Shown here in pieces: positions 26,997 to 27,561 of a stretch of DNA of 30,917 nucleotides. Source of the DNA: an uncultured archaeon (GTDB lineage Archaea > Asgardarchaeota > Thorarchaeia > Thorarchaeales > CAZPUN01); NCBI GenBank assembly GCA_964589775.1, contig CAZPUN010000001.1, forward strand, positions 1 to 30,917, written 5' to 3'. Every line of letters starts with the position of its first letter. The stretch's first letter is position 1. The position numbers and the translations under genes are program-made. The notes under the pieces are model-generated. The model saw nothing but the letters and a program-made list of their open reading frames with translations. It searched no databases and was not told the origin of the DNA.

Positions 26997-27290
26997 TCAC
27001 CTTTGAAAAAAGGTGAAAACCGTGTGCTAGGGATACCACCCGCAAACACCACCCGCATATTTTTTCCAAGACAAGTCAGGAAAATTTTCCCGTGCGCTAG
27101 GGGAGAATGCCGGCACGCCCAAAATGAGAGGGCACGACAGTCCCACCGTTTTATACAAATCAAATTGCATCCCATTTTCGACCCACAATAAAAGGCCGGC
27201 GGGACCGTCTAGTGCCGGATATTTTTCCCGACATGTCATGGCATATGAGTGCCCTGCAAGTGCGACCCATTTTACTCACAGGACATGTTA
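26997..27290 (-). ncRNA. Candidate structured 5' leader or ncRNA upstream of the GH3 gene
   Basis: Several stems: 27136-27148/27197-27209 (13 bp, two G-U pairs on the minus strand only), 27149-27154/27188-27193, 27110-27116/27212-27218, 27244-27250/27274-27280 (one minus-strand G-U), 27231-27237/27282-27288, plus an SD-covering hairpin at 26997-27016. Confidence 0.55.
27020..27102. repeat. Short direct repeats and a palindrome in the leader
   Basis: CCGTGYGCTAGGG at 27020-27032 and 27090-27102 (12/13 identical); ACCACCCGCA at 27035-27044 and 27048-27057; perfect palindrome GGAAAATTTTCC at 27079-27090. Confidence 0.8.
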
Positions 27291-27561
27291 CTCTATTACA
27301 TCGAGAAGCAATAAACCCATCGCAAATAATTCAATCTCATAAAGATATTCCTTTTCTTAGTGAAAAAAAGCATAATATGTCAATAAGTACATAATAAGCA
27401 ATTATATCCTCTTTTTTCACTCTTTATTTTAAAATAAATATATAAAATCGAATAATACAGAAATAATACCTCAAAATATTTCGCATTTTCCCTAAAAGAA
27501 GGGATATGAGTGTTTTTCGCTCTGTGGAAAATTCAAATTTTTTTCATGAAGTCGATTGAAA

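What the first reader, a model, noticed from the sequence alone, without database searches (positions are those of the whole stretch)
26997..27290. ~295-nt structured RNA leader heading the GH3 gene and probably the whole operon
Seen: a GC-richer non-coding stretch next to AT-rich DNA, with nested stems. GACGGUCCCGCCG pairs with CGGUGGGACUGUC (13 bp), extended by UUUUAU/AUAAAA and GGCAC/GUGCC. A second domain has ACAUGUC/GACAUGU enclosing UGUGAGU/ACUCAUA. The non-Watson-Crick positions in these stems are G-U on the minus strand but A-C on the plus strand, pointing to folding of the sense RNA. GUGCC (27135-27131) has alternative partners (27216-27212 or 27255-27249), and CCGGCAC can instead pair with 27116-27110, so mutually exclusive folds are possible. 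Inference: an unrecognised riboswitch-like element or ncRNA; few archaeal riboswitches are known.
Basis: partly seen in the sequence, partly recalled or inferred. Interest (0 to 1): 0.8.

Follow-up and report, generated by a model that had tools for sequence, protein, structure and literature searches.

The report
Orphan structured RNA leader before GH3
A folded, roughly 250-base RNA leader in front of a GH3-type ligase gene of an Asgard (Thor-type) archaeon is real and conserved in its one known relative, matches no known RNA family, and probably hides the gene's ribosome-binding site, but nothing yet shows that it senses a metabolite.

Summary
The exceptional folding sits in a 158-nt core (window 27232-27075, minus strand; z about -4.8; sense strand 12-13 kcal/mol more stable than antisense). 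The flanking 'second domain' and the 3' tail fold no better than shuffles.

One syntenic relative exists (L030, GH3 81% identical). There the AT-rich spacer and GH3 third codon positions are about 50% identical. A 29-nt block, the core helices and about 85 nt around the translation start are 97-100% identical. The relative's core folds on its own into the same architecture, with pair-preserving changes in three helices.

No Rfam family matches. SRP and RNase P RNAs lie elsewhere. The element is single-copy and was not found in 86 other genomes of the class or upstream of 60 other GH3 genes.

Homologue N-termini indicate that GH3 starts at TTG 27045 or GTG 27039, not ATG 26997. The G-rich repeat is then the Shine-Dalgarno site, and a pyrimidine stretch 5' of the core can pair with it.

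Best reading: a lineage-specific cis-regulatory leader that masks the ribosome-binding site, trigger unknown. A 16-mer in its apical hairpin is the exact complement of the 5'UTR of three micro-peptide genes that this scan noted before.

The parts
27306..27334 (-). 29-nt block, 100% identical in the relative, inside otherwise diverged AT-rich DNA. It contains two TATA-like words. Candidate promoter / TSS-proximal element of the leader, or its first hairpin.
   Evidence: 100% against 51% in the spacer; fold is weak (-5.1 kcal/mol, z 0.06)
27233..27290 (-). Only 30% identical in the relative and not more stable than shuffles. Its 3' part (27247-27241) is the pyrimidine-rich stretch that can pair with the Shine-Dalgarno-like repeat.
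27075..27232 (-). Structured core. Closing helix P0 (27232-27223 / 27084-27075). P1 (27218-27212 / 27116-27110). Long helix P2 (27209-27198 / 27147-27136) capped by hairpin A and the variable hairpin B (27170-27153). Hairpin P3 (27133-27117) with an invariant 9-nt loop. Small hairpin P4 (27104-27088).
   Evidence: same architecture from independent folds of both genomes; model from the window alone finds L030 at 59 bits, E 8e-14; 96.5% of cells paired, 5 pairs changed on both sides, slid controls 0-1
27180..27197 (-). Hairpin A at the tip of P2. The 16-mer 27195-27180 is invariant in both leaders. It recurs exactly in the three family-X loci of this genome, where its complement lies just 5' of the Shine-Dalgarno site of a 13-codon micro-gene.
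27035..27056 (-). Tandem 9-nt G-rich repeat (27056-27048 and 27043-27035). The first copy is the probable Shine-Dalgarno site (27054-27048). The probable GH3 start codons TTG 27045 and GTG 27039 lie in or next to the second copy.
   Evidence: pairing with 27247-27241
26997..27016 (-). Perfect 8-bp hairpin, kept in the relative with a U-A to A-U swap at the loop-closing pair. With the revised start it lies in codons 10-16 of GH3 and carries an internal SD-like word before the two ATG codons.
27020..27032 (-). Second copy of a 13-nt motif (first copy 27102-27090, in P4). A third copy in the genome lies at C17:30176, in the opposite orientation to its downstream gene. Could be an RNA motif or a DNA operator.

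Best explanation
The region is the 5' leader of the GH3 mRNA, and probably of the long same-strand gene array behind it. It runs about 250 nt, from a start near 27300 (27285-27305, inferred) to the GH3 start codon at 27045 or 27039.

Its centre is a 158-nt multi-helix domain (27232-27075). The ribosome-binding site is the first copy of a tandem G-rich repeat (27054-27048). It can pair with a pyrimidine-rich stretch (27247-27241) that lies 8 nt 5' of the core. The core is therefore clamped between an anti-SD and the SD.

Inferred mechanism: the folding state of the core, set by an unknown ligand, protein or RNA, decides whether that clamp forms and so whether GH3 is translated.

Shown: the fold, its conservation, the pair-preserving changes, and single-copy status. 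Inferred: the transcript limits, the SD assignment, the switching and the trigger.
For: Fold: z -5.28 for the interval. The core alone is z -4.8 in the window and -3.8 in L030, and sense beats antisense by 12-13 kcal/mol in both.

Conservation against a diverged background: spacer 51%, GH3 third positions 48%, the 29-nt block 100%, and 27060-26975 about 97-100%.

The two cores fold independently to the same architecture. A covariance model built from the window alone finds L030 at E 8e-14 and nothing else in the genome.

P2 shows G-U to A-U, C-G to U-G and U-G to C-G changes plus loss of one whole base pair. P0 has a G-C to A-U swap. The 8-bp hairpin has a U-A to A-U swap.

The anti-SD/SD helix is kept at the same spacing from P0 in both genomes, through three pyrimidine-for-pyrimidine changes opposite G.

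The start codon is revised from homologues: Pfam GH3 profile position 2-3 falls at residue 16-17 in four homologues with SD-backed ATG starts. In the window it falls at residue 17 from GTG 27039, 19 from TTG 27045, but 3 from ATG 26997.
Against: Only two sequences exist, so covariation is thin, and the alignment behind one search was fitted to the structure.

There are no transcript data, so the TSS is unknown. A consensus TATA at 27446-27439 and an A-rich word at 27066-27057 are alternative promoters.

A 6-bp match to a G-rich target within a 60-nt variable stretch is not rare by chance (my estimate is about 0.5 per leader). Only its conserved position gives it weight.

The tail's extreme conservation is not explained by local folding (z -0.16). 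It could reflect DNA-binding sites or N-terminal coding constraints.

No homologous core was found before other GH3 genes, which is unlike widespread riboswitch classes.
Confidence: 0.5

Rival explanations
1. Two units instead of one. The core (27232-27075, perhaps from 27300) is a stand-alone small RNA gene. The stretch 27105-27035 is the DNA-level promoter and operator region of GH3: two copies of a partly palindromic 13-bp motif, an A-rich TATA-like word at 27066-27057, and 13-bp-spaced direct repeats over the start site.
For: The 13-nt motif occurs three times in the genome, where about 0.07 is expected by my estimate. The third copy (C17:30176) is in the opposite orientation to its downstream gene, as expected of a DNA site and not of an RNA motif. 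The tail is ultra-conserved yet folds no better than shuffles. The genome holds other orphan stand-alone structured RNAs.
Against: The TATA-like word is poor and differs in L030. P0 and the anti-SD/SD helix join sequence on both sides of the supposed boundary and are kept in L030. There is no conserved oligo-T terminator between the core and the tail.
Confidence: 0.2
2. A metabolite-binding riboswitch in the strict sense. The core is an aptamer for a small molecule related to the GH3 reaction (an acyl acid, an amino acid or their conjugate), with SD masking as the expression platform.
For: Multi-helix junction with invariant loops (the P3 loop and the hairpin A loop) and variable peripheral hairpins. 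It sits directly before an enzyme gene, with a plausible SD-masking helix.
Against: The core is found in two genomes only. It is absent upstream of 60 other GH3 genes, and no hit came from the 86 other genomes of the class. Nothing points to a ligand. Invariant loops fit protein or RNA partners equally well.
Confidence: 0.12
3. A small protein gene on the opposite (+) strand, 27024-27188, 55 aa, with its own SD and a GTG start. It would account for the conservation.
For: SD-like word 7 nt before the GTG on the + strand in both genomes. The L030 version is 75% identical over 40 aa. In the block 27137-27085, 5 of 7 changed codons are synonymous in this frame (and read).
Against: Lengths and C-termini differ (55 against 40 aa), and the frame is broken by the 1-nt difference in P2. 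The conserved blocks have no synonymous changes at all, although GH3 third positions are 48% identical. Hairpin A, the P1 5' strand and the 29-nt block lie outside the ORF. A search of 1.84 billion proteins gave only two low-complexity eukaryote-type repeat proteins.
Confidence: 0.05
4. A decayed mobile-element scar (a MITE, or an IS605-type guide-RNA remnant such as the roughly 40-copy families noted elsewhere in this genome), or chance GC-rich DNA.
For: Such remnants are common in this genome according to earlier notes of the scan. The leader shares short words with other loci.
Against: It is single-copy by BLAST and by covariance model. It is syntenic and conserved in L030 in blocks at 100%. 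Only 16-17-nt words are shared with other loci, with no terminal repeats.
Confidence: 0.04

Closest known systems
Translational riboswitches and other SD-masking mRNA leaders of bacteria (for example the SD-sequestering expression platforms reviewed in PMC5473149)
   Same: A structured domain in the 5' leader, with a helix that can pair the ribosome-binding site to an upstream complementary stretch. It lies directly before an enzyme gene.
   Different: No ligand is known and no conserved aptamer core exists beyond two genomes. The host is an Asgard archaeon. Transcript limits are unmapped.
Orphan lineage-specific archaeal structured RNAs (for example the intergenic sRNAs of Methanosarcina; other orphan RNAs noted in this same genome by the scan)
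   Same: GC-rich island in AT-rich intergenic DNA, single copy, conserved only in the nearest relatives, no Rfam family.
   Different: This one abuts and overlaps a translation start and is larger (a 158-nt core within about 250 nt).
Family X of this genome (three ~150-nt loci on C21, C17 and C25 that carry a 13-codon Pro-rich micro-gene on one strand)
   Same: Exact 16-mer shared with hairpin A, plus G-rich GGGUGG-type words.
   Different: The covariance models of the leader core do not hit family X. The rest of the sequence is unrelated. The 16-mer is on the strand complementary to the micro-gene mRNA.
Rfam wcaG RNA (RF01761)
   Same: Weak local resemblance over the G-rich repeats.
   Different: 20.4 bits against a gathering score of 42, E 0.25 on a 751-nt search. 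Not a member.

Membership tests
Any Rfam 15 family | Score at or above the family's gathering threshold | tested here: not met
   No match in the whole window at gathering. The best sub-threshold match is wcaG at 20.4 against 42 bits.
Archaeal SRP RNA / RNase P RNA (same size class) | Match to RF01857 or RF00373; one copy per genome | tested here: not met
   Both are found elsewhere in the genome above threshold: C13:49681-49993 at 182.8 bits and C9:22168-22503 at 159.1 bits.
Riboswitch (metabolite-sensing) | Aptamer core conserved across many lineages and repeatedly linked to the same gene class | tested here: not met
   The core is found in 2 genomes only. No model hit in 86 other genomes of the class or in 60 GH3-upstream loci. 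No shared k-mer beyond the SD.
Riboswitch (metabolite-sensing) | Expression platform with mutually exclusive pairing that covers the SD or a terminator | tested here: inconclusive
The anti-SD (27247-27241) / SD (27056-27050) helix is predicted and kept in L030.
Riboswitch (metabolite-sensing) | Direct, selective ligand binding | not testable with these tools
   Needs in-line probing, SHAPE or ITC.
MITE / IS605-derived guide-RNA remnant | Many dispersed copies; terminal repeats or a transposase-linked parent | tested here: not met
   One copy by BLAST, by short-word BLAST and by covariance model.
Family X (micro-gene / sRNA repeat of this genome) | Full-length similarity to the ~150-nt unit | tested here: not met
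   Only the 16-mer and a few short words are shared. The models R1 and R2 do not hit X loci.
Protein-coding small ORF (antisense) | Conserved frame and length, synonymous-site turnover, homologues | tested here: not met
   55 against 40 aa with different C-termini. No real homologues among 1.84 billion proteins.

The most novel reading that the evidence does not exclude
The leader is a docking site for other RNAs. The invariant 16-nt tip of hairpin A (27195-27180) is the perfect complement of the 5'UTR, up to the Shine-Dalgarno site, of three micro-peptide genes. Micro-gene transcripts and the GH3/recombination-operon leader would then regulate one another by base pairing: either the leader sponges and silences the micro-genes, or the micro-gene RNAs remodel P2 and open the GH3 ribosome-binding site. 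This would be an RNA-RNA regulatory circuit in an Asgard archaeon that ties a peptide signal to a DNA-processing operon.
Probability: 0.15. Interest if true: 0.75.

Novelty: new member of a known kind. Interest (0 to 1): 0.5.

Why it matters
Very few cis-regulatory RNAs are known in archaea, and I found none described for Asgard archaea in one literature search. This leader heads a 27-kb same-strand array that includes a second RadA, XPD- and Hel308-type helicases and a giant surface protein. Its control would therefore set the expression of a candidate DNA-exchange system.

It gives a concrete, testable object: a 158-nt core, a defined anti-SD/SD pair, and a 16-nt complementarity to micro-peptide genes.

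Its reach is limited. It is confined to one family with two sequenced members, and no transcript data exist.

Tried and rejected
1. SRP or RNase P RNA: both are elsewhere in the genome.
2. Rfam at E-value level: only chance-level hits. Family X and the C17 locus also gave none.
3. Close relatives. BLAST of the element in 40 relatives found nothing. GH3 peptide scans of metagenome and genome contigs found nothing. The GH3 protein search gave one relative at 81% and the next at 33%. A search for N-terminal GH3 fragments found nothing.
4. The 16-mer as a probe:
- The 96 matches in the loci returned (16 viral, 80 metagenome) have no flank similarity, so those are chance hits.
- In 400 Asgard genomes exact matches occur only in this genome, and 1-mismatch hits are at control level.
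5. A class-wide 'GH3 leader'. GH3 genes of the sister family do have long upstream gaps that are conserved within a genus. They share no motif or model hit with this element, and their fold z-scores are mostly -0.3 to -3.6.
6. A P3-loop pseudoknot with 27175-27167: it pairs in the window, but the L030 partner does not fit (by eye).
7. Antisense small ORF: see the rivals.
8. RNA duplex energy between family X and the leader: the script machine was lost, so the complementarity is read directly from the sequences.

Full report
WHERE IT LIES

The window comes from a 2.16-Mb, 35% GC genome in 64 contigs. It is the only member of its family among the reference genomes held.

All large ORFs of the window lie on the minus strand. 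The largest gap, 27561-26998, separates an unknown 499-aa gene from a GH3-family adenylating enzyme (Pfam GH3 N, M and C domains). Further downstream are a RadA paralogue, helicases and a 2599-aa protein.

CHECK OF THE OBSERVATION

The interval 26997-27290 folds to -115.1 kcal/mol on the minus strand (z -5.28; none of 200 shuffles as good) and to -95.5 (z -4.48) on the plus strand.

Split into parts, the signal belongs to the core 27232-27075 (-66.7 kcal/mol, z -4.8; antisense -53.4, z -3.3). The 5' domain 27300-27233 (z -0.66) and the tail 27075-26985 (z -0.16) are ordinary.

WHAT IT IS NOT

- No Rfam family matches at gathering score. At E-value level the best hit is wcaG, at half its threshold.
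- SRP RNA and RNase P RNA are found elsewhere, above threshold.
- The element is single-copy by BLAST, by short-word BLAST and by covariance model.

THE ONE RELATIVE

A protein search found one close GH3 (81% identity) on a 29.5-kb contig of GCA_053940065.1. The next best is 33%. The locus (L030) is syntenic: glutamate dehydrogenase, the unknown ~500-aa gene, a 538-nt gap, GH3, two unknown genes, RadA, and so on.

The two genomes are well diverged. GH3 third codon positions are 48% identical and the AT-rich spacer 51%. Against this background:
- a 29-nt block (27334-27306) is 100% identical;
- the 5' domain is 30% identical;
- the core is 65% identical, with several perfect blocks (hairpin A, P3 plus the 3' strand of P1);
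- 27060-26975 is 97-100% identical.

STRUCTURE

Folded separately, the two cores give the same architecture:
- P0, the closing helix;
- P1, 7 bp and invariant;
- P2, 11-12 bp, capped by hairpin A (invariant loop) and a variable hairpin B;
- P3, a 4-bp stem with an invariant 9-nt loop;
- P4, a small hairpin.

In P2 the differences are G-U to A-U, C-G to U-G and U-G to C-G, plus removal of one nucleotide from each strand. That is a whole base pair lost, and it would be a frameshift if the sequence were coding. P0 has a G-C to A-U swap.

A covariance model made from the window alone finds the L030 core at 59 bits, E 8e-14. On that alignment 96.5% of cells pair, and five pairs are changed on both sides, against 0-1 in the slid controls. 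The alignment was fitted to the model and there are only two rows, so this is support and not proof.

The kept partner of CCGGCAC is 27116-27110.

WHERE GH3 STARTS

An alignment with five homologues shows that they all carry about 14 more N-terminal residues.

Pfam GH3 profile position 2-3 falls at residue 16-17 in four homologues whose ATG is backed by a canonical SD. In the window it falls at residue 17 if translation starts at GTG 27039, at 19 from TTG 27045, and at 3 from ATG 26997. A public gene call of 528 aa (P0001) agrees with GTG 27039, and in L030 the frame opens exactly at the TTG.

I therefore read 27045/27039 as the start, at roughly 2:1 odds. Two consequences follow:
- The first copy of the tandem G-rich repeat (27054-27048) can form seven pairs with the 3' end of 16S rRNA (from general knowledge of the anti-SD sequence). 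It becomes the Shine-Dalgarno site.
- The 8-bp hairpin 27016-26997 lies inside codons 10-16. That hairpin is still under RNA-level selection: the only two differences in about 85 nt are a U-A to A-U swap of its loop-closing pair.

LIKELY MECHANISM

RNAalifold pairs 27247-27241 with 27056-27050, the SD-like repeat. In L030 the orthologous stretch lies at the same 8-nt distance from P0 and differs at three positions, each a pyrimidine exchanged for a pyrimidine opposite G. In the window the full-length minimum-energy fold extends this to both repeats.

The layout is therefore anti-SD, then core, then SD and start. This is the layout of SD-masking leaders. In the window the anti-SD overlaps the inner stem of the 5' domain, so a choice of folds exists there, but that stem is not conserved.

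I infer that the state of the core governs access to the ribosome-binding site. What sets that state is unknown.

LINKS TO OTHER LOCI

Short-word BLAST found the 16-mer of hairpin A (27195-27180) exactly at three other places. They belong to a ~150-nt, three-copy family (C21, C17, C25) with no Rfam match.

An earlier report of this scan reads the other strand of that family as a 13-codon Pro-rich micro-gene. I confirmed the ORF and saw a consensus TATA, an SD and the ATG on that strand. On that strand the 16-mer lies just before the SD, so the GH3 leader's hairpin A is its exact complement.

The 16-mer is also intact in a third organism, upstream of a 74%-identical amidohydrolase. It is absent as an exact word from the other 399 Asgard genomes searched.

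This could mean RNA-RNA pairing, a shared protein site or common descent. I could not compute duplex statistics because the script machine was lost.

A second shared word, 17 nt including the 13-nt motif of P4 and of 27032-27020, recurs at C17:30176 in the opposite orientation to its downstream gene. This keeps a DNA-operator reading of the tail alive.

OTHER GH3 GENES

In the sister family, GH3 genes (25-30% identical) also have long ORF-poor upstream gaps. Their sequences are conserved within a genus: clusters of 13 and 7, one with a covarying 9-12-bp long-range helix.

They share no k-mer with this element beyond the SD. Their fold z-scores are modest (incomplete). The two-sequence model R2 finds nothing in the 86 other genomes of the class or in the 60 upstream regions. 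The core is thus specific to this family.

RIVALS

The rivals are a separate small RNA plus a DNA-level promoter and operator; a true metabolite riboswitch; an antisense 55-aa ORF; and a mobile-element scar. They are weighed in their own sections.

The antisense ORF deserves mention. It has an SD and a GTG in both genomes, and 5 of 7 changed codons in one block are synonymous. But its length and C-terminus differ, its conserved blocks show no synonymous turnover at all, it misses several conserved parts, and it has no real homologue among 1.84 billion proteins.

VERDICT

This is a real, conserved, sense-strand structured RNA leader of a new, very narrow family. It most likely masks the GH3 ribosome-binding site. 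'Riboswitch' is not shown. Interest is moderate.

Noticed in passing
window 27037-27045: GH3 probably starts at TTG 27045 or GTG 27039, 14-16 codons upstream of the ATG pair at 26997/26994. The homologues all have that N-terminal stretch. The separate earlier finding that the 8-bp hairpin sequesters the SD would then concern an internal SD-like word inside the coding sequence.
   Followed up: yes
L032:1470-1640 (G000 C21:88969-89139), L033:1395-1565, L034:1290-1460: Three-copy ~150-nt family with no Rfam match. One strand folds into several hairpins. The other carries a 13-codon Pro-rich micro-gene with TATA, SD, ATG and a stop. It is syntenic in a third organism (L061:1-57). Which strand is expressed is open.
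   Followed up: partly
L035:1420-1540 (G000 C17:30120-30240): GC-rich ~90-nt element between two plus-strand genes. It shares a 17-mer and a 10-mer with the leader's tail, in the same order as in the leader but in the opposite orientation to its downstream gene. Fold z -3.26.
   Followed up: partly
window 27437-27497: Semi-conserved stretch (73-77% against about 50% around it) in the AT-rich spacer, with a consensus archaeal TATA at 27446-27439. It shares the word TGCGA with the 29-nt block. Possible alternative promoter or regulator site.
   Followed up: no
window 27024-27188 (+): Antisense 55-aa ORF with an SD-like word and a GTG start. A 40-aa counterpart exists in L030. Judged to be a by-product of the conserved blocks.
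   Followed up: yes
L009, L012, L013, L014, L020, L023, L024 (about 230 nt before their GH3 starts): GH3 genes of one sister genus share a conserved ~230-nt upstream region. It has a long-range helix that covaries (9 to 12 bp) and a hairpin that ends in the first bases of the SD. This may be a different GH3 leader RNA in that genus.
   Followed up: partly
L007, L008 (about 110 nt before their GH3 starts): A 6-bp hairpin with the loop UGAUUGUG, resembling the loop of hairpin A. One pair changes C-G to U-A between the two genomes.
   Followed up: no
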